DNA of 64,000 nucleotides, taken from the NCBI RefSeq assembly GCF_051903065.1, contig NZ_CP178438.1, one strand, 5' to 3'. A program made the position numbers and the translations under genes. Source of the DNA: Escherichia coli (lineage in GTDB: Bacteria > Pseudomonadota > Gammaproteobacteria > Enterobacterales > Enterobacteriaceae). Of this stretch, positions 22,957 to 58,105 are shown piece after piece. Below the pieces are notes generated by a model. That model saw only the letters and a list, made by a program, of their open reading frames with translations. It was not told where the DNA came from and ran no database searches. How positions within the stretch are numbered: position 1 is the stretch's first letter; every line of letters starts with the position of its first letter.

Positions 22957-23688
22957 TTATATCAGCCAAATGAAACTTGCCATACGACCGGTGGTCTTGT
23001 CGCGACGATAAGAGAAGAAAGTCTCATTTTCCGTATATGTACAACGGTCGCCGCCGAAAATTTGCTCAACACCAACGCTCGCCAGACGCTGGCGAGCAAG
23101 CTGATAAATATCCGCCAGATATTTATCACCATGCTGAATGAAAGCTGCACTCGCGTTGGCGTCTACTGCCATAAACGCCTCGCGAACCTCCGCCCCCACT
23201 TCAAACGCGCGTGGGCCAATTGCCGGCCCTAACCAGGCGAGAATATTTTCTGGATTATCAGCAAAACAGGAAACTGTCTCTTCCAGCACGCCTGCGCACA
23301 GTCCACGCCAGCCAGCATGAGCGGCGGCGACTTCCGTTCCCGCTCGATTGCAAAACAGCACAGGGAGGCAGTCGGCAGTCATCACTGCGCAAACCGTGCC
23401 GGGCGTATTGCTATAAGAGGCATCTGCTCGTTTTGAGGCATAAGGTTCGCCAGTAAGATTAAGCACATCTTTGCCGTGTACCTGCTCAAGCCAGACCGGT
23501 TTAGAAGGCAAATTGCCCGCAGCAAAAAGTCGCTTGCGATTCTCCTCAACGTGATCCGGGTTATCGCCACAATGGGCACCGAGGTTGAGCGAGTCATACG
23601 GGGGCAAGCTCACGCCGCCGATACGAGTAGAGCTACAGGCCGCAACACCTTTTGGCAGCGGCCACTGCGGGACAATCAGCTTACTCAT
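22957..23688 (-). CDS. pgeF: purine nucleoside phosphorylase / laccase-like YfiH
   Basis: 243 aa DUF152-type protein; 4-nt overlap with rluD. Confidence 0.88.
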   Translation of the reverse strand: MSKLIVPQWPLPKGVAACSSTRIGGVSLPPYDSLNLGAHCGDNPDHVEENRKRLFAAGNLPSKPVWLEQVHGKDVLNLTGEPYASKRADASYSNTPGTVCAVMTADCLPVLFCNRAGTEVAAAHAGWRGLCAGVLEETVSCFADNPENILAWLGPAIGPRAFEVGAEVREAFMAVDANASAAFIQHGDKYLADIYQLARQRLASVGVEQIFGGDRCTYTENETFFSYRRDKTTGRMASFIWLI

Positions 23689-24665
23689 AACCAGTCCACT
23701 TCATCTTTATGCTCTTCGAAATCGGCGCGCATCACCTCAATCAGCTCCACCATATCTTGTGGAATAGGCGCATGCCATTCCATTTCGATACCGGAGATCG
23801 GGTGATAAAGACGCAGCATGGTTGCATGAAGCGCCTGGCGGTCAAATTTACGCAGCGTGGAGATAAACGCTTCCGAAGCACCTTTTGGCGGACGCGGACG
23901 GCCACCATAAACCGGATCGCCCACCAGCGGATGAGTGATATGGGCCATATGCACGCGGATCTGGTGCGTACGTCCAGTTTCCAGACGCAACCGCAGACGC
24001 GTGTGCACACGGAAGTGTTCCATGATGCGATAGTGAGTCACCGCCGGTTTGCCCATCGGATGCACCGCCATGTGAGTACGTTTGGTCGGGTGGCGGCTGA
24101 TTGGTTCATCTACTGTACCGCCAGCGGTCATATGACCAATTGCCACCGCTTCATACTCACGAGTAATTTCACGCCTTTGCAAAGATTCGACTAAACGCGT
24201 CTGAGCCGGAACGGTTTTTGCCACAACCATCAGGCCAGTGGTGTCTTTATCCAGACGATGGACGATGCCTGCACGCGGTACATCAGCAATGGGCGGATAG
24301 TAATGAAGTAACGCATTCAGTACCGTGCCATCCGGGTTACCCGCGCCAGGATGTACCACCAGATCGCGCGGTTTATTAATGACGATGATATCTTCATCTT
24401 CATAGACGATATCCAGCGGGATATCCTGCGGTTCAAAACGCGCTTCTTCTTCAATCTCAGCGTTGATGGCAACCTGCTCGCCACCCAATACTTTTTCTTT
24501 CGGCTTATCACAAACTTTGCCGTTTACCAGCACGCGCTGGTCGAGGATCCATTCTTTTATTCGCGAACGTGAATAATCCGGGAACATTTCGGCCAAAGCC
24601 TGATCTAAGCGTTGTCCGAGTTGGTTTTCGGACACCGTTGCAGTGAGCTGTACTCGTTGTGCCAT
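23685..24665 (-). CDS. rluD: 23S rRNA pseudouridine synthase D
   Basis: 326 aa; S4 domain plus RluA-family catalytic motif HRLDKDTTG. Confidence 0.95.
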   Translation of the reverse strand: MAQRVQLTATVSENQLGQRLDQALAEMFPDYSRSRIKEWILDQRVLVNGKVCDKPKEKVLGGEQVAINAEIEEEARFEPQDIPLDIVYEDEDIIVINKPRDLVVHPGAGNPDGTVLNALLHYYPPIADVPRAGIVHRLDKDTTGLMVVAKTVPAQTRLVESLQRREITREYEAVAIGHMTAGGTVDEPISRHPTKRTHMAVHPMGKPAVTHYRIMEHFRVHTRLRLRLETGRTHQIRVHMAHITHPLVGDPVYGGRPRPPKGASEAFISTLRKFDRQALHATMLRLYHPISGIEMEWHAPIPQDMVELIEVMRADFEEHKDEVDWL

Positions 24666-24799
24666 ATATACTGCTTCTTCGTTTATCGTTGGGGTTTTAC
24701 GGCTTTGCCGTTTAATATAGTGTGCTATTGTAGCTGGTCTTAACCGGGAGCAGGAACAGAGAATCTCCCGTATTACATTTTGAGGAAAGTCAAAACGTC

Positions 24800-43438: not shown

Positions 43439-43921
43439 ATGACGAAGAAAAAAGCACATAAACCTGGTTCAGCGACCATCGCGCTTAACAAGCGCGCCCG
43501 TCACGAATACTTTATCGAAGAAGAGTTCGAAGCGGGACTTGCCCTGCAAGGCTGGGAAGTTAAATCCCTGCGCGCAGGAAAAGCCAATATCAGCGACAGC
43601 TACGTCCTTCTGCGTGACGGAGAGGCATTTCTGTTTGGCGCTAACATCACGCCAATGGCCGTGGCCTCCACGCATGTGGTGTGCGATCCTACCCGTACCC
43701 GCAAGTTACTTCTCAACCAGCGCGAACTGGACTCATTGTACGGTCGCGTCAATCGAGAAGGCTATACCGTAGTGGCGCTCTCCCTGTACTGGAAAAATGC
43801 CTGGTGCAAAGTGAAAATCGGCGTCGCCAAAGGTAAGAAACAGCACGATAAACGTTCAGATATCAAAGAGCGCGAATGGCAGGTGGATAAAGCGCGTATC
43901 ATGAAAAACGCCCACCGTTAA
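43439..43921 (+). CDS. smpB: SsrA-binding protein SmpB
   Basis: 160 aa ([25 protein letters not shown]...). Confidence 0.97.
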
Positions 43922-44135
43922 ACCTGCACTCCAATTATTGACCAGTTCCTCACCGCGCCTCCCTCTCCGGCGGCGCGAATGAACATCTTATTGGTTATCA
44001 CATCCGACACAAATGTTGCCATTCCATTGCTTAATCGAATAAAAATCAGGCTACATGGGTGCTAAATCTTTAACGATAACGCCATTGAGGCTGGTCATGG
44101 CGCTCATAAATCTGGTATACTTACCTTTACACATT

Positions 44136-44498
44136 GGGGCTGATTCTGGATTCGACGGGATTTGCGAAACCCAAGGTGCATGCCGAGGGGCGGTTGGCCT
44201 CGTAAAAAGCCGCAAAAAATAGTCGCAAACGACGAAAACTACGCTTTAGCAGCTTAATAACCTGCTTAGAGCCCTCTCTCCCTAGCCTCCGCTCTTAGGA
44301 CGGGGATCAAGAGAGGTCAAACCCAAAAGAGATCGCGTGGAAGCCCTGCCTGGGGTTGAAGCGTTAAAACTTAATCAGGCTAGTTTGTTAGTGGCGTGTC
44401 CGTCCGCAGCTGGCAAGCGAATGTAAAGACTGACTAAGCATGTAGTACCGAGGATGTAGGAATTTCGGACGCGGGTTCAACTCCCGCCAGCTCCACCA
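44136..44498 (+). ncRNA. ssrA: tmRNA (transfer-messenger RNA)
   Basis: 363 nt from GGGGCTGATTCTGGATTCGACGGG to ...GGTTCAACTCCCGCCAGCTCCACCA; tag-ORF region present. Confidence 0.97.
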
Positions 44499-44508
44499 AA
44501 TAAATCAA

Positions 44509-44540
44509 GGGGTTACGTGAAAGCGTAGCCCCTTTTTCTT
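44509..44540 (+). terminator. intrinsic terminator downstream of ssrA
   Basis: Hairpin GGGGTTACG...CGTAGCCCC (one G:U) followed by TTTTTCTTT. Confidence 0.7.
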
Positions 44541-44621
44541 TGGTAGTGGCGGCAAAATGGCGACAGACTTTTGCGTCCATCTTGCCTGTCGCCATCTTGA
44601 AATCATGCAAAGAGGTTTCAC

Positions 44622-45104
44622 ATGGAAGAACTTCACTTTGTTTACATCAATGCAAATGGTCGTATCGGTGTTCACTCAATACAGAGCATCAGTTATAGCG
44701 AAAATCATATACAGGGCATTTGTAAGAACACCGATCGAATAAAAACCTTCCGAAAAGACCGCATTCTTAAACAGTACGATTCACCAGAACAAGCCATTCA
44801 GGAATGCGCGTCATTCCTCCCCGAAAACTACTCACATCTCACTAAGCAGTCTGGTCCGAAAAAAAATACATTCGATGTGTGCTTCACCGGATTTAAGAAA
44901 GCAGATAAAGAAAGATTGGTTGATAAGGCGAATGAACAAGGATTAACGGTAAGAACCTCTGTAACCCAAAGCCTTCAGATGCTCTGTTGCGGTTACAATG
45001 CAGGCCCATCAAAAGTATCGGCAGCCAGGATGAAAGGCACAATCATCATAGATGAGCCTGGCTTTATACATTTTCTTGAAACGGGTGAGATCCCAGATGA
45101 ATAA
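44622..45104 (+). CDS. hypothetical prophage cargo protein, WYL-like N-terminal domain plus BRCT-like C-terminal domain
   Basis: 160-aa ORF with AGAGG 10 nt upstream of ATG; N-terminal ...DRIKTFRKDRI resembles the WYL-domain RxFRxDRI strand; C-terminal FDVCFTGF...GLTV...GPSKVSAARMKGTIIIDEPGF resembles the LigA-type BRCT fold pattern. Confidence 0.6.
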   Translation: MEELHFVYINANGRIGVHSIQSISYSENHIQGICKNTDRIKTFRKDRILKQYDSPEQAIQECASFLPENYSHLTKQSGPKKNTFDVCFTGFKKADKERLVDKANEQGLTVRTSVTQSLQMLCCGYNAGPSKVSAARMKGTIIIDEPGFIHFLETGEIPDE

Positions 45105-45107
45105 AAA

Positions 45108-45125
45108 CCTGCCGTAGCAGGTTCT
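45108..45125. terminator. bidirectional terminator between the cargo gene and ogr
   Basis: Hairpin AACCTGC-CGTA-GCAGGTT flanked by A/T runs between convergent stops. Confidence 0.6.
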
Positions 45126-45130
45126 CTTTC

Positions 45131-45349
45131 TCAAAAATTCATATGCCCCTGACCACCTGGCAATGGATGTGGAGGGGCTGTAGCAATCAATGCAGGTGTC
45201 ACAATAAACCGGACCACTGTTTCATGGGTAACAAAAGTGCTCCCGCAGTTAATATTTTGGCACTGGCAGTAACGCTCTTTGGTGCTTTCTGTTACTTGAA
45301 AACTGCTCCTTGTGTGCGCCGCATGACCACACTTCGGACAATTCATCAT
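45131..45349 (-). CDS. ogr: Ogr-type zinc-finger late-gene activator
   Basis: From ATG at 45349 (or 45346): MMNCPKCGHAAHTRSS...KERYCQCQNINCGSTF...PHPLPGGQ matches the P2 Ogr CxxC-N22-CxxxxC pattern; ORF-track GTG extension rejected. Confidence 0.85.
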   Translation of the reverse strand: MMNCPKCGHAAHTRSSFQVTESTKERYCQCQNINCGSTFVTHETVVRFIVTPALIATAPPHPLPGGQGHMNF

Positions 45350-45417
45350 ATCCAGATCCCTACCTTTGCTATCAGAATCATTGTAATGATACACAAAATA
45401 TCAATATTGAGAACACT

Positions 45418-46518
45418 TTATTCCATTTCAAGATCATCAATCTTCACTTCGAGTTCAATACTGGTTGTAAAACCGTTATCCGGGCTGACGGTATGTGTCA
45501 GAGTCGTAATGGTCCATTCCGCATCATCTATCGGCTGTTTAAAGCCACTGACTTTCACTGGCATTTCCGTGTAGAGATCTGCCCGACCTTCCGCCAGTTG
45601 TAGCGAGAATGACGCAACGCCGCGTTGCAGGCGTTCCCACTGCATTTTCGCTGCCCGTTCAGCGTTGCTCCGGTTGGCATAAGTGCGATTAAGTACCAGC
45701 ACGTTTTCATCCGTACCCACCAGGTAATCGCCCTGCTTTGCTTCCGGCTCTTTCTTCTGCTTTGCGGTCCTGCGCTTACGCTTCACCGTGGTGCTTTCTT
45801 TCTTCGCGGGTTCGCGGGTATGCAACCAACTGGCAATTACGCCCGTATAGGCTCCGCGATCTGCCAGGGTAAAGCGGTGACTGTCGCCGTCCTTGCGTGT
45901 GATAGTGATCACCGGCAGAGGTTTACCGCTGGCGCTTTTGCCCTGTCCCTGCCGGATGAATAACAGATTGCCATTTTTCACCGACGCAATAGCACCGTAC
46001 TGGCGCGCCAGCCGCATCAGAAAACTGCCGTCACTCTCATTGGTCTGGTCTATATGTTCCACGGGCTTATCCGACAGGTCTTTACCCAGTGCCATCTTCA
46101 GCTTGTGCCGCGCGGCTATTTCCTTCACCACTTCCCCGACGGTGGTCTTGTGCCACGACTTTTCACGACGGGTATTCAGCGTTTCCCGAAAATCAGCACT
46201 TCGCGCCCGGATAGTCAGGCGGTCCGGTGCGCCAGTGTGTTCAATCTCGTCCACCGTGAATGCCCCTTTAGGGAAAAGCGGCTGCCCCTTCCAGCCCAGC
46301 GCCAGCGTAATGACCGCACCACGGCGCGGCAGCACGATTTTTCCGTCGGCGTCGTCCAGCTCCAGATCAAGCTGGTCCGCTTCAAAGCCCCGATTGTCCG
46401 TCAGAGTCAAACTCATCAGGCGGTTATCCAGCACAGTGGTGATATCCCTGCCCTCAATACTGATGCTGAATGCGGGAGTTTTGTTGCCTTTGTTAAGCAG
46501 TTCAGAGCTGAAATTCAC
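45418..46518 (-). CDS. D: tail protein D (P2 gpD-like)
   Basis: 366 aa at the position downstream of U; overlapping stop/start with U. Confidence 0.8.
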   Translation of the reverse strand: MNFSSELLNKGNKTPAFSISIEGRDITTVLDNRLMSLTLTDNRGFEADQLDLELDDADGKIVLPRRGAVITLALGWKGQPLFPKGAFTVDEIEHTGAPDRLTIRARSADFRETLNTRREKSWHKTTVGEVVKEIAARHKLKMALGKDLSDKPVEHIDQTNESDGSFLMRLARQYGAIASVKNGNLLFIRQGQGKSASGKPLPVITITRKDGDSHRFTLADRGAYTGVIASWLHTREPAKKESTTVKRKRRTAKQKKEPEAKQGDYLVGTDENVLVLNRTYANRSNAERAAKMQWERLQRGVASFSLQLAEGRADLYTEMPVKVSGFKQPIDDAEWTITTLTHTVSPDNGFTTSIELEVKIDDLEME

Positions 46519-52331: not shown

Positions 52332-52349
52332 TGTGTCGTTATTCACACA
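52332..52349. promoter_or_regulatory. Ogr-box-type dyad TGT-N12-ACA upstream of FI (late promoter candidate)
   Basis: TGTGTGAATAACGACACA on the minus strand, centred about 85 bp upstream of the FI start. Confidence 0.55.
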
Positions 52350-52397: not shown

Positions 52398-52964
52398 TCA
52401 GGGCGATTCATTGCTCTCATTCGCCGGAAATTTTCTATAAATGGTAGAAACGCCCACATCAAAAATCAGTGCAATACGCTGTCTTGATTCTCCGGCCTCG
52501 AGTAAACGTCCAATCTGTGCCCACTGTTCGGTGGTCAACTTAGGACGGCGTCCACCTACTCTGCCTTTGGCACGAGCTGCAGCCAGCCCTGCTCTGGTAC
52601 GTTCAACTATCAGTTCACGTTCCATTTCAGCCAGAGCCCCCATGACGTGAAAAAAGAAACGGCCCATTGGGGTACTGGTATCAATACTGTCAGTCAGGCT
52701 TCGGAAATTCACACCACGCTGGCGCAACTCTTCTATCAGCGTAACAAGATGCCGCATACTGCGCCCCAGTCTATCCAGCTTCCAGACAACCAGCGTGTCT
52801 CCTGCCGATAGTGTCCTGAGCAGTTTTTTAAGCCCCGGTCTGTCGGACTTAGTGCCACTGATTTTATCCTCAAAAATCCGCTCACATCCCGCGCAGTTCA
52901 GTGCATTACGTTGCAAATCGGTGTTCTGGTCATTTGTTGACACGCGTACATAGCCAATAAGCAT
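52398..52964 (-). CDS. serine DNA invertase (Hin/Gin/Pin family)
   Basis: 188 aa from ATG at 52964: MLIGYVRVSTNDQNTDLQ... with catalytic Ser region and C-terminal HTH (GVSTIYRKF); ORF-track upstream extension rejected. Confidence 0.9.
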   Translation of the reverse strand: MLIGYVRVSTNDQNTDLQRNALNCAGCERIFEDKISGTKSDRPGLKKLLRTLSAGDTLVVWKLDRLGRSMRHLVTLIEELRQRGVNFRSLTDSIDTSTPMGRFFFHVMGALAEMERELIVERTRAGLAAARAKGRVGGRRPKLTTEQWAQIGRLLEAGESRQRIALIFDVGVSTIYRKFPANESNESP

Positions 52965-53019
52965 GATCAATCCCCTGAATAAAAACCGGGGATGATGCCA
53001 GTTAGCCATTATCTCTGCA

Positions 53020-53045
53020 TTTTCTTAAACGTTGGTTTGGGAGAA
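53020..53045. repeat. hix/gix-like 26-bp inversion site (left)
   Basis: TTTTCTTAAACG-TT-GGTTTGGGAGAA; bottom strand reads TTCTCCCAAACC-AA-CGTTTAAGAAAA; shares 14 bp with the right site in inverted orientation. Confidence 0.75.
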
Positions 53046-53468
53046 GGTTCGGCATTACCCGTTGGTGTGCCTGTTCCGTGGCCTTCTGCAATACCGCCTA
53101 CTGGCTGGCTGAAATGTAACGGTGCGGCTTTTTCTGCCGTTGAATATCCTAAACTGGCGAGGGTTTACCCGACAAATAAATTACCTGATTTACGCGGTGA
53201 GTTTATTCGTGGCTGGGATGATGGGCGTGGAGTGGATAGTGGGCGCGCGTTATTATCAACTCAAACAGATGAATTTAAATCACATAGTCATTATTTCGAA
53301 AGAACATGGGCACAAACTGGATTTGATACAACAGGTGGATATTATCTTTTAGCCGCTGATGTTTCTGGCTCAGTAAATCAACAGAGATCCGATAGCACTA
53401 ACTCGGTGGGGGGGAGAGAATCTCGCCCTCGTAATATTGCATTTAACTATATTGTGAGAGCTGTGTAA
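53033..53468 (+). CDS. alternative tail-fibre C-terminal segment, promoterless in this orientation
   Basis: Frame continuous through the left site; encodes GLGEGSALPVGVPVPWP...LPDLRG...SHSHYF...NIAFNYIVRAV, the P2 gpH-type C-terminal pattern. Confidence 0.75.
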
Positions 53469-54073
53469 TGGATAATGCTGTATTAAATAGCGAACATATT
53501 GCTACGAAGGCTGGAAATGTTACTGTTTATAACTTTGACGGTGAAACGCGAGAGTATATTTCCCCATCTATTGAATATATTGCCGTTGGTGTCGGTATTC
53601 CGGCATATTCATGTTTAGATGCTCCTGCCACACGTAAAGATGGTTATGCTATTTGCCGTTCTGCAGGCTTAAACTCATGGGAATATATACCAGACCATCG
53701 CAGTGAAATTGTCTATAGCACTGAAACAGGAGAATCAAAAGAAATCACAGCTCTGGGGGATTACCCTGAAAATACAACCATTATCGCCCCATTAACGCCA
53801 TACGATAAATGGGATGGTGAGAAATGGGTGACGGATACCGAGGCACAGCGTAGCGCCGCAGTAGACGCGGCAGAAGCACAGCGCCAGTCGCTGATTGATG
53901 CTGCTATGGCTTCCATTAGCCTGCTTCAACTGAAATTACAGGCCGGACGGAAGCTGACGCAAGCAGAAACAACCCGACTAAACGCCGTGCTGGATTACAT
54001 TGACGCGGTGATGGCAACGGATACCAGCAACGCGCCGGGGGTTATCTGGCCAGTTCCACCTGAGATGGTTTAA
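53468..54073 (+). CDS. tail-fibre assembly chaperone (Tfa/gpG-like) for the alternative fibre segment
   Basis: 201 aa, start overlaps upstream stop (TAATG); C-terminal pattern ...TDTSNAPGVIWPVPPEMV typical of Tfa proteins. Confidence 0.8.
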   Translation: MDNAVLNSEHIATKAGNVTVYNFDGETREYISPSIEYIAVGVGIPAYSCLDAPATRKDGYAICRSAGLNSWEYIPDHRSEIVYSTETGESKEITALGDYPENTTIIAPLTPYDKWDGEKWVTDTEAQRSAAVDAAEAQRQSLIDAAMASISLLQLKLQAGRKLTQAETTRLNAVLDYIDAVMATDTSNAPGVIWPVPPEMV

Positions 54074-58087: not shown

Positions 58088-58105
58088 TGTATCAGTGCTG
58101 ATACA
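58088..58105. promoter_or_regulatory. Ogr-box-type dyad TGT-N12-ACA upstream of V (late promoter candidate)
   Basis: TTGTATCAG-TGCTGA-TACAA; extended perfect 9-bp inverted arms; centred about 55 bp upstream of the V start. Confidence 0.6.

What the first reader, a model, noticed from the sequence alone, without database searches (positions are those of the whole stretch)
45131..45394. ogr reading frame: in-frame upstream extension versus conserved zinc-finger start
The maximal ORF begins at a GTG 15 codons upstream, but the Ogr homology (MxCPxCxHAAH) starts at the tandem ATGs at 45349/45346, which have a purine-rich stretch upstream. Automated annotation would probably over-extend this gene.
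Basis: seen in the sequence. Interest (0 to 1): 0.2.

Follow-up and report, generated by a model that had tools for sequence, protein, structure and literature searches.

The report
Ogr late-activator gene start codon
This is the ordinary 72-codon late-gene activator gene (ogr) of a P2/186-like prophage in E. coli; the 15 extra in-frame codons upstream are the gene's promoter and leader, not protein, and mainstream annotation already calls it that way.

Summary
The longest ORF on the minus strand runs from GTG 45394 to TGA 45131 (87 codons). Tandem ATGs sit at 45349/45346, and Ogr homology begins there. Every family profile and every relative aligns from the first ATG. Relatives with 88-94% identical Ogr carry frame-shifting indels or a TAA two codons upstream. 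Among 25 close haplotypes the extension has 0 synonymous and 7 non-synonymous changes, against 18 and 4 in the core (p=2e-4). The GTG has no Shine-Dalgarno sequence; the ATG has one (-8.3 kcal/mol). The GTG also lies inside a conserved sigma-70 promoter (TTCTCA-16-TATCAT). That promoter aligns with the annotated pB promoter of phage 186, so the gene's own transcript should start downstream of the GTG. The prediction that automated annotation would over-extend is mostly wrong. PGAP/RefSeq and most phage records aa, and that exact protein occurs on at least 1000 contigs. The 87-aa call exists only on 16 metagenome contigs under 5 kb. One relative (Salmonella phage RE-2010) is deposited with a similar over-extension. 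This is ordinary, already-known biology of low interest.

The parts
45131..45349 (-). ogr coding sequence as best supported: 72 codons plus TGA, starting at the first of the tandem ATGs
   Evidence: NCBIfam NF007241 position 1 and all tblastn and MAFFT alignments begin at this Met. PGAP annotates exactly this CDS in the 100%-identical genome. Purifying selection: 18 synonymous and 4 non-synonymous changes.
45245..45340 (-). C4 zinc-finger segment CX2CX22CX4C: Cys codons 4, 7, 30 and 35 at 45340, 45331, 45262 and 45247
   Evidence: These Cys are invariant in alignment A1 with P2 Ogr, 186 B, PSP3 Pag and Fels-2. The motif definition is quoted in PMC3931495.
45350..45394 (-). The 15-codon 'extension' from the GTG up to the ATG. 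It is non-coding: the end of the promoter spacer, the -10 hexamer, the predicted transcription start (about 45381-45377) and the 5' leader
   Evidence: 0 synonymous and 7 non-synonymous polymorphisms. Indels that are not multiples of three, and TAA at codon -2, in relatives.
45392..45394 (-). GTG that opens the maximal ORF; it forms the last three bases of the promoter spacer, abutting the -10 hexamer
   Evidence: No Shine-Dalgarno sequence (duplex dG +0.6 kcal/mol). The first base varies (G/C/A) in relatives, and Fels-2 has CTG.
45408..45413 (-). Predicted -35 hexamer TTCTCA of the ogr promoter
   Evidence: Promoter scan. It aligns with the annotated -35 TTCACA of 186 pB and is nearly invariant in 14 relatives.
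45386..45391 (-). Predicted -10 hexamer TATCAT of the ogr promoter
   Evidence: Promoter scan. It is identical to the annotated -10 TATCAT of 186 pB. The block GTAT(C)ATTA is invariant across relatives, and close haplotypes show no polymorphism here.
45401..45410 (-). Perfect 10-bp palindrome TCAATATTGA overlapping the -35; a candidate repressor (CI) operator
   Evidence: By analogy, the 186 pB CI sites also overlap the -35. In phage Cartapus the 12-mer recurs once, inside the cI gene. Binding is inferred, not shown.
45359..45366 (-). Shine-Dalgarno-like AAGGTAGG, 9 nt before ATG 45349 and 12 nt before ATG 45346
   Evidence: Duplex with the 16S rRNA 3' end is -8.3 kcal/mol; fewer than 3.5% of random 20-mers of the window reach -7.
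45099..45126 (-). Intrinsic terminator after ogr: a GC-rich hairpin followed by a U-run, shared with the convergent gene 44622-45104
   Evidence: RNA fold -17.7 kcal/mol, z = -4.76, 0 of 200 shuffles as stable; terminator scan. P2 and 186 annotate a terminator at the same place.
45418..46518 (-). Tail gene D (Phage_GPD), the last gene of the late tail operon; its stop lies 23 nt upstream of the GTG
   Evidence: Pfam PF05954, E=1.9e-27; annotation in relatives.
52332..52349 (-). TGT-N12-ACA element in the intergenic region upstream of the tail-sheath gene (ATG 52255); a likely Ogr target (PF-type late promoter)
   Evidence: The consensus for P2 late promoters is quoted in PMC3931495 and PMC3152322.
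58088..58105 (-). TGTATCAGCACTGATACA, a TGT-N12-ACA element with extended dyad in the 68-nt gap upstream of the V-like baseplate gene (ATG 58041); a likely Ogr target (PV-type)

Best explanation
The window carries the right-hand part of a P2/186-like (Peduoviridae) prophage inserted at ssrA in an E. coli chromosome. The feature is its ogr gene. The gene encodes a 72-residue C4 zinc-finger activator, which by family knowledge binds TGT-N12-ACA elements about 55 bp upstream of the phage late promoters and recruits RNA polymerase through the alpha subunit. Translation starts at ATG 45349, with the adjacent ATG 45346 as a possible minor alternative, and is served by the AAGGTAGG ribosome-binding site. 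The 45 nt between GTG 45394 and the ATG are not coding. They hold the end of the spacer and the -10 hexamer of the gene's own sigma-70 promoter (TTCTCA-16-TATCAT, 45413-45386), the predicted transcription start near 45379, and a leader of about 30 nt. The GTG is therefore absent from the ogr promoter's own mRNA. It is present only on read-through transcripts of the upstream tail operon, where it has no ribosome-binding site. A palindrome over the -35 probably lets the prophage repressor shut the promoter off, as CI does at pB of phage 186. Shown here: the ORF anatomy, family membership, alignment start, non-conservation of the extension, the substitution pattern, and the ribosome-binding-site energies. 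Inferred: promoter activity and the transcription start (by alignment to the annotated 186 and P2 promoters), repressor control, and the activation mechanism (by family knowledge).
For: 1) Family start. Pfam Ogr_Delta covers residues 18-64 of the 87-aa ORF. NCBIfam NF007241, a 72-position profile, aligns positions 1-70 to residues 16-85. tblastn of the 72-aa form against 227 phage records starts at query residue 1 in 59 of the 60 rows listed (the other at residue 2). In the alignment with P2 Ogr, 186 B, PSP3 Pag, Fels-2 and others, Met16 is invariant and six of the eight are 72 aa; the seventh is the 89-aa RE-2010 annotation, used here as deposited, and Klebsiella ST11phi3.1 was cut short by the end of its record.
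2) The extension is not conserved. Of 45 distinct upstream sequences from 80 related viral contigs, those with 88-94% identical Ogr have 1-2 nt indels. Five (L060, L063, L064, L073, L084) have TAA at codon -2.
3) Selection. Among 25 haplotypes within 11 differences of the window, the extension has 0 synonymous and 7 non-synonymous sites and the core has 18 and 4; Fisher p=2.1e-4.
4) Ribosome-binding site. The duplex with the anti-SD sequence is +0.6 kcal/mol upstream of the GTG and -8.3 upstream of ATG 45349, with 8-9 nt spacing.
5) Promoter. The scan finds TTCTCA-16-TATCAT at 45413-45386. These blocks are the only invariant stretches between D and ogr in 14 relatives. They align with the annotated 186 pB -35 TTCACA and -10 TATCAT. 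The P2 record likewise annotates -35 and -10 signals between D and ogr, with a similar distance from the -10 to the ATG: 33 nt in P2 (34 if its -10 is read as the hexamer TAAAAT), 31 in 186, 36 here.
6) Curated annotation. PGAP nt in the identical genome and in other E. coli genomes; phage records do the same.
7) Targets. TGT-N12-ACA elements sit in the intergenic regions upstream of the sheath and V-like genes, matching the described Ogr mechanism (PMC3152322, PMC3931495).
Against: There is no transcript-start or N-terminal protein data for this phage, and the primary P2 and 186 papers could not be read here. The promoter therefore rests on consensus, conservation and annotated homologous promoters. 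The Fels-2, SopEPhi and RE-2010 subgroup keeps the same 17-codon open stretch, with an in-frame ATG at -15 to -17 in SopEPhi and RE-2010 and at -16 only in Fels-2 (which has CTG at -15), and shares 'YHY' with the window's extension. That similarity is encoded by the conserved -10 block TGTATCATTA, and the rest of the extension is about 30-40% identical against 78% for the core. On late read-through mRNA the GTG is present 23 nt after the D stop, so a trace of re-initiation cannot be excluded. The score to the NCBIfam equivalog model (111.6 bits) is just under its 116-bit cut-off. The choice between ATG 45349 and ATG 45346 rests on homology (P2 and 186 have Met-Phe) and spacing, not on experiment.
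Confidence: 0.93

Rival explanations
1. The full 87-codon ORF from GTG 45394 is the real gene, and the 15-residue N-terminal tail is part of the functional protein.
For: It is the longest ORF. Some gene callers chose it on 16 short metagenome contigs. A related phage, RE-2010, is annotated with an equivalent extension. The Fels-2 subgroup keeps the frame open over the same length.
Against: There is no ribosome-binding site. The GTG lies inside the conserved promoter, upstream of the predicted transcript start. The extension has 0 synonymous and 7 non-synonymous changes. Closer relatives have frame shifts and a stop at codon -2. No family profile or homologue aligns to it.
Confidence: 0.02
2. 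Translation starts at the second ATG (45346), giving a 71-residue protein, or at both ATGs.
For: Both ATGs are invariant in the 14 relatives of the MMNCP type. Two older NCBI records annotate the 71-aa form. The Shine-Dalgarno duplex is nearly as stable when measured from the second ATG (-8.0 kcal/mol).
Against: P2 Ogr and 186 B have Met-Phe at these two positions, so only the first position is a universally conserved Met. Spacing from the SD sequence is 8-9 nt for the first ATG and 11-12 nt for the second. NCBIfam profile position 1 aligns to the first Met. PGAP and nearly all records use the first.
Confidence: 0.1
3. There are two isoforms. The gene's own promoter yields the 72-aa protein. 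Late read-through mRNA from the tail operon yields some 87-aa protein by re-initiation at the GTG, 23 nt after the D stop codon.
For: The P2 record notes one terminator for both 'ogr transcript and F operon', so late transcripts read through ogr. The GTG lies close to the D stop.
Against: The extension is not conserved, and 0 of its 7 changes are synonymous, so no selected function is visible. There is no SD sequence, and 23 nt is long for termination-reinitiation coupling (general knowledge, not tested).
Confidence: 0.03

Closest known systems
Ogr of bacteriophage P2 (NP_046785.1, 72 aa)
   Same: Same length, same CX2CX22CX4C zinc finger and same Met three residues before the first Cys; 54% identity. 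Same gene position: after tail gene D, with its own annotated -35/-10 promoter in the D-ogr gap and a terminator right after the gene. P2 also has in-frame upstream start codons (at -3, -12, -21), one of them overlapping its -10 signal, and these are not used in its annotation.
   Different: The promoter sequence is unrelated (TTG...TAAAATG in P2). P2 has a P2-type C repressor rather than a 186-type CI. This protein has Cys at residue 28 where P2 has His, and Met-Met-Asn instead of Met-Phe-His at the N-terminus.
B protein and pB promoter of coliphage 186 (NP_052276.1)
   Same: 63% identical 72-aa activator. The promoter hexamers align: TTCACA-17-TATCAT in 186 against TTCTCA-16-TATCAT here. An inverted repeat overlaps the -35 in both. 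The closest complete phage, Cartapus, has a 186-type cI/apl/cII switch, and its palindrome recurs inside cI, where 186 has its FL site.
   Different: The operator sequence differs (ATTCAC-N5-GTGAAT in 186, TCAATATTGA here). Repressor binding here is untested. The attachment site is ssrA rather than a tRNA-Ile gene.
Ogr-like proteins of Fels-2, SopEPhi and RE-2010 (Felsduovirus) and of E. coli phages 500465-1 and Cartapus
   Same: 78% (Fels-2) to 99-100% (Cartapus, 500465-1 and p13P477T-2) identical protein. Same 68-nt D-ogr gap, same conserved promoter blocks, and the same ssrA integration site for the E. coli group.
   Different: None of substance for the E. coli phages; this is the same gene. 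RE-2010 is annotated 17 codons too long.
Delta of satellite phage P4
   Same: Same Ogr/Delta zinc-finger family. The match is to query residues 1-44 at 45% identity, E=4e-5.
   Different: Only the N-terminal 44 residues of the query match P4; from memory, P4 Delta is longer and has a duplicated Ogr-like domain. It is encoded by a satellite, not a helper phage, and is not adjacent to a tail operon.

Membership tests
Ogr/Delta zinc-finger late-gene activators (Pfam PF04606) | Significant match to the Ogr_Delta profile above the curated cut-off | tested here: met
   73.3 bits against a 26.3-bit cut-off, E=1.5e-20, full profile 1-47; PHROG 603 'transcriptional regulator', E=9e-28.
Ogr/Delta zinc-finger late-gene activators (Pfam PF04606) | Four Cys in the spacing CX2CX22CX4C | tested here: met
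   Cys4, Cys7, Cys30 and Cys35 of the 72-aa form, invariant in alignment A1; the motif is as quoted in PMC3931495.
Ogr/Delta zinc-finger late-gene activators (Pfam PF04606) | A protein of about 72 residues starting with Met three residues before the first Cys | tested here: met
   Met16 of the long ORF is invariant, and P2, 186, PSP3, Fels-2 and other homologues are all 72 aa.
Ogr/Delta zinc-finger late-gene activators (Pfam PF04606) | Gene located after tail gene D and next to the attachment site of a P2-like phage, with its own promoter and terminator | tested here: met
   D lies at 45418-46518 and tmRNA/att at 44136-44498, with a terminator at 45099-45126. One cargo gene (44622-45104) lies between ogr and att.
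Ogr/Delta zinc-finger late-gene activators (Pfam PF04606) | Cognate late promoters carrying TGT-N12-ACA upstream of the late operons | tested here: met
   Elements at 52332-52349 (before the sheath gene) and 58088-58105 (before the V-like gene). Window-wide the motif is not enriched (19 found, 15.2 expected), so the argument is position, not count. Transcript starts are not mapped.
Ogr/Delta zinc-finger late-gene activators (Pfam PF04606) | Zinc binding and activation through the RNA polymerase alpha C-terminal domain | not testable with these tools
   Known for P2 Ogr (PMC3152322); this needs biochemistry or genetics.
NCBIfam NF007241 (PRK09678, equivalog 'DNA-binding transcriptional regulator') | Score at or above the curated equivalog cut-off of 116 bits | tested here: not met
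   111.6 bits, E=1.9e-32, profile 1-70 of 72. This is just under the cut-off, consistent with PGAP naming it only 'ogr/Delta-like zinc finger family protein'.
186 pB-type repressor-controlled late-activator promoter | Sigma-70 -35/-10 pair in the D-B(ogr) gap | tested here: met
   TTCTCA-16-TATCAT aligns to the annotated pB hexamers and is conserved. Activity is not measured.
186 pB-type repressor-controlled late-activator promoter | Immunity-repressor operator (inverted repeat) overlapping the promoter, with the same repeat at a flanking site in the cI region | tested here: inconclusive
   The palindrome TCAATATTGA overlaps the -35. In Cartapus the 12-mer TCAATATTGATA recurs once, inside cI (about 0.004 expected by chance by my estimate). 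The main cI/apl operator region shows a different arrangement of repeats, and no binding data exist.

The most novel reading that the evidence does not exclude
The GTG extension is translated only from late read-through transcripts of the tail operon. This would give a second, N-terminally extended Ogr isoform late in infection, in this lineage and the Fels-2 lineage, which keep the frame open.
Probability: 0.03. Interest if true: 0.25.

Novelty: already known. Interest (0 to 1): 0.06.

Why it matters
It matters little. The gene, its family, its start and its position are established, and RefSeq already carries the correct 72-aa model (WP_000980501.1). There are three small practical points. 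First, longest-ORF or metagenome-mode gene calling on short contigs does sometimes produce the 87-aa artefact. Second, at least one deposited phage genome, RE-2010, carries a similar over-extension that could be corrected. Third, the 'extension' is useful as a marker of the ogr promoter: it suggests this ssrA-integrating E. coli phage group controls its late activator as phage 186 does, by direct repressor binding, which is testable.

Tried and rejected
1) The primary papers on ogr transcription (Birkeland et al. 1991) and on 186 B (Pountney et al. 1997) are not held in the library. Three full-text searches gave only secondary statements. I used the regulatory features annotated in the P2 and 186 records instead.
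2) An Rfam scan of 43800-46000 at E<=1 found only the tmRNA and sub-threshold noise, so no known RNA element lies in the D-ogr gap.
3) A window-wide count of TGT-N12-ACA is at chance level (19 found, 15.2 expected). Only the two sites in the right intergenic positions are used.
4) I asked whether the palindrome at the ogr promoter matches the main operator at the cI/apl switch of Cartapus. It does not obviously match, because the half-site arrangement differs. Only the copy inside cI matches, so repressor control stays an inference.
5) I considered the plus-strand antisense ORFs over ogr (45143-45574 and 45310-45603). They have no support, because the minus-strand frame shows clear purifying selection, and I did not pursue them.
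6) A Pfam search of the N-terminal half of the neighbouring 160-aa protein found nothing, even at E<=10.
7) I did not run the large protein-database searches, structure prediction or fold search. The question was settled without them.

Full report
WHAT IS THERE. On the minus strand an ORF runs from GTG 45394 to TGA 45131 (87 codons). In-frame ATGs sit at 45349 and 45346, 15 and 16 codons downstream of the GTG. From the first ATG the product reads MMNCPKCGHAAHTRSS..., 72 residues.

CONTEXT. The window is an E. coli chromosome, 100% identical over the queried stretch to strain MARGA_3. The tmRNA gene ssrA lies at 44136-44498 on the plus strand. Directly to its right begins a P2/186-like prophage (Peduoviridae). 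Its closest sequenced phages are Escherichia phages 500465-1 and Cartapus, at about 97% DNA identity. Reading the minus strand, the order is tail tape-measure gene, U, D (45418-46518, Pfam Phage_GPD), then ogr. A strong hairpin terminator follows at 45099-45126 (-17.7 kcal/mol, z = -4.8). A convergent 160-aa cargo gene (44622-45104) then separates ogr from ssrA. This is the canonical position of ogr in P2 and of B in 186.

FAMILY MEMBERSHIP. Pfam Ogr_Delta matches at E=1.5e-20, covering residues 18-64 of the 87-aa ORF. PHROG 603 matches at E=9e-28. NCBIfam NF007241, a 72-position model, aligns positions 1-70 to residues 16-85. Its score of 111.6 bits is just under the 116-bit equivalog cut-off. 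Alignment with P2 Ogr (54% identity), 186 B (63%), PSP3 Pag (54%), Fels-2 (78%) and others shows the invariant CX2CX22CX4C cysteines and an invariant Met at the position of ATG 45349. Six of the eight relatives in that alignment are 72 residues long; the seventh is the 89-aa RE-2010 annotation and Klebsiella ST11phi3.1 was cut short by the end of its record. A tblastn search of the 72-aa form against 227 phage records starts at query residue 1 in 59 of the 60 listed rows.

IS THE EXTENSION CODING? FIVE INDEPENDENT LINES SAY NO.

(1) Relatives. I compared 80 related viral contigs and a set of annotated phages. The upstream 45 nt are not kept in frame. Contigs whose Ogr is 88-94% identical have 1-2 nt indels. 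Five of them carry TAA two codons before the ATG. Other relatives have stops at -9 to -12.

(2) Substitution pattern. Among 25 distinct haplotypes within 11 differences of the window, the 45-nt extension has 7 variable sites. All 7 are non-synonymous in the ORF frame. The 216-nt core has 18 synonymous and 4 non-synonymous changes. Fisher's exact test gives p=2.1e-4. Protein-level constraint therefore begins at the ATG.

(3) Ribosome binding. The 20 nt before the GTG form no duplex with the 16S rRNA 3' end (+0.6 kcal/mol). Those before ATG 45349 give -8.3 kcal/mol with 8-9 nt spacing. Fewer than 3.5% of random 20-mers from the window reach -7.

(4) Promoter. A sigma-70-like pair, TTCTCA-16-TATCAT, occupies 45413-45386. 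In an alignment of 14 relatives the only invariant blocks between the D stop and the ATG are this -35 block and GTAT(C)ATTA around the -10. These blocks align with the annotated pB promoter of phage 186, TTCACA-17-TATCAT. The P2 record also annotates a -35/-10 pair in its D-ogr gap, with a similar distance from the -10 to the ATG. The GTG forms the last three bases of the spacer, directly abutting the -10 hexamer. Its first base is G, C or A in different relatives. A transcript from this promoter should begin near 45379, so it would not contain the GTG. The partial amino-acid resemblance between the window's extension and that of the Fels-2 group ('YHY') is simply the translation of the conserved -10 block TGTATCATTA.

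(5) Chance. Seventeen stop-free codons containing one alternative start codon is unremarkable. Eleven of 17 representative relatives, P2 included, have some in-frame upstream ATG/GTG/TTG, at scattered positions.

WHICH ATG? Both ATGs are invariant in the MMNCP-type relatives. P2 and 186 have Met-Phe, so only the first position is universally Met. The SD spacing also favours the first, and the NCBIfam profile begins there. I put about 0.8 on 45349 as the main start. Use of the second ATG cannot be excluded without protein data.

THE ANNOTATION CLAIM. PGAP annotates a 219-nt CDS from 45349 in the identical genome (WP_000980501.1). In two other E. coli genomes it calls the equivalent ATG, giving 219 nt in TOK-001 and 216 nt (71 aa) in H22. 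The records of 500465-1, Cartapus, p13P477T-2, Fels-2 and SopEPhi agree. The same look-up puts the 87-aa form on 11 contigs. The contig search read 16 contigs carrying the 87-aa form, all shorter than 5 kb, from Logan and ENA metagenome assemblies. Over-extension is therefore rare, but it does occur. Salmonella phage RE-2010 is deposited, and retained in RefSeq, with a 270-nt ogr that starts 17 codons too early.

HOW IT WORKS. By family knowledge, Ogr is a small zinc-binding activator that binds inverted repeats centred about -55 at the P2 late promoters and needs contact with the RNA polymerase alpha subunit (PMC3152322). The late promoters share TGT-N12-ACA (PMC3931495). In the window such elements sit in the two expected intergenic regions: 52332-52349, before the sheath gene, and 58088-58105, before the V-like baseplate gene. 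Control of ogr itself is probably 186-like. Cartapus has a cI/apl/cII switch. A perfect palindrome, TCAATATTGA (45401-45410), overlaps the -35, just as the 186 CI sites overlap the -35 of pB. In Cartapus the 12-mer TCAATATTGATA recurs exactly once elsewhere, inside the cI gene, which is where 186 has its FL site carrying the pB-type repeat. This last step is inference; binding has not been tested.

VERDICT. The annotation prediction is largely wrong. This is a textbook gene, already annotated correctly, and of low interest.

Noticed in passing
window 44622-45104 (+): A 160-aa gene lies convergent with ogr, wedged between ogr and the ssrA attachment site. It has only a weak C-terminal BRCT match (Pfam E=1e-3; PADLOC PDC-S48 E=2e-7, C-terminal part) and no Pfam hit for the N-terminal half. 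Different records call it 'DNA ligase', 'putative exonuclease' or 'BRCT domain-containing protein' (PHROG 2561 'DNA ligase', E=2e-77), although at 160 aa, with only a BRCT-domain match, a ligase looks implausible (my judgement). Function is unknown; it looks like prophage cargo. The local G+C is about 0.41-0.43, against 0.53-0.59 in the tail genes.
   Followed up: partly
L002/L102 (Cartapus) 23583-24788; L098 1161-1866: The slot next to the BRCT gene, between ogr and att/int, holds different cargo in relatives. Cartapus has a RES-domain (NAD+-binding) protein there, and a Logan contig has a DarT/NADAR pair. In the window nothing lies between the BRCT gene and ssrA. This suggests a variable defence/toxin hot spot beside the attachment site.
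   Followed up: no
window 45401-45410; L102 (Cartapus) 22507 and 25956: The perfect palindrome TCAATATTGA overlaps the -35 of the ogr promoter. In Cartapus the 12-mer TCAATATTGATA recurs once, inside the cI repressor gene about 500 bp from the switch. This parallels the 186 pB and FL CI sites and marks a candidate operator for direct repression of ogr.
   Followed up: partly
L089/L106 (Salmonella phage RE-2010, NC_019488.1 33686-33955): The deposited and RefSeq annotation of the ogr homologue is 270 nt (89 aa), starting 17 codons upstream of the conserved Met.
   Followed up: yes
L099 1040-1200 and L100 936-1096 (ENA metagenome contigs): Here ogr, with its promoter and the last ~60 nt of gene D, follows directly on a resolvase/invertase gene. 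The whole tail operon from sheath to D appears to be deleted. This is either a defective prophage remnant or an assembly artefact.
   Followed up: partly
window 44136-44498 (+): An intact tmRNA gene (ssrA; tag ANDENYALAA) lies immediately left of the prophage end, so the prophage uses ssrA as its integration site. The other prophage end lies beyond the window. The phage records 500465-1 and p13P477T-2 include ssrA and smpB, so their boundaries contain host DNA.
   Followed up: partly
window 52398-54073: Between the tail-fibre genes and the sheath operon lie a minus-strand 203-aa ORF and oppositely oriented plus-strand ORFs. In Cartapus this region holds a Gin-like DNA invertase and alternative tail-fibre assembly genes, so it is probably an invertible host-range segment.
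   Followed up: no
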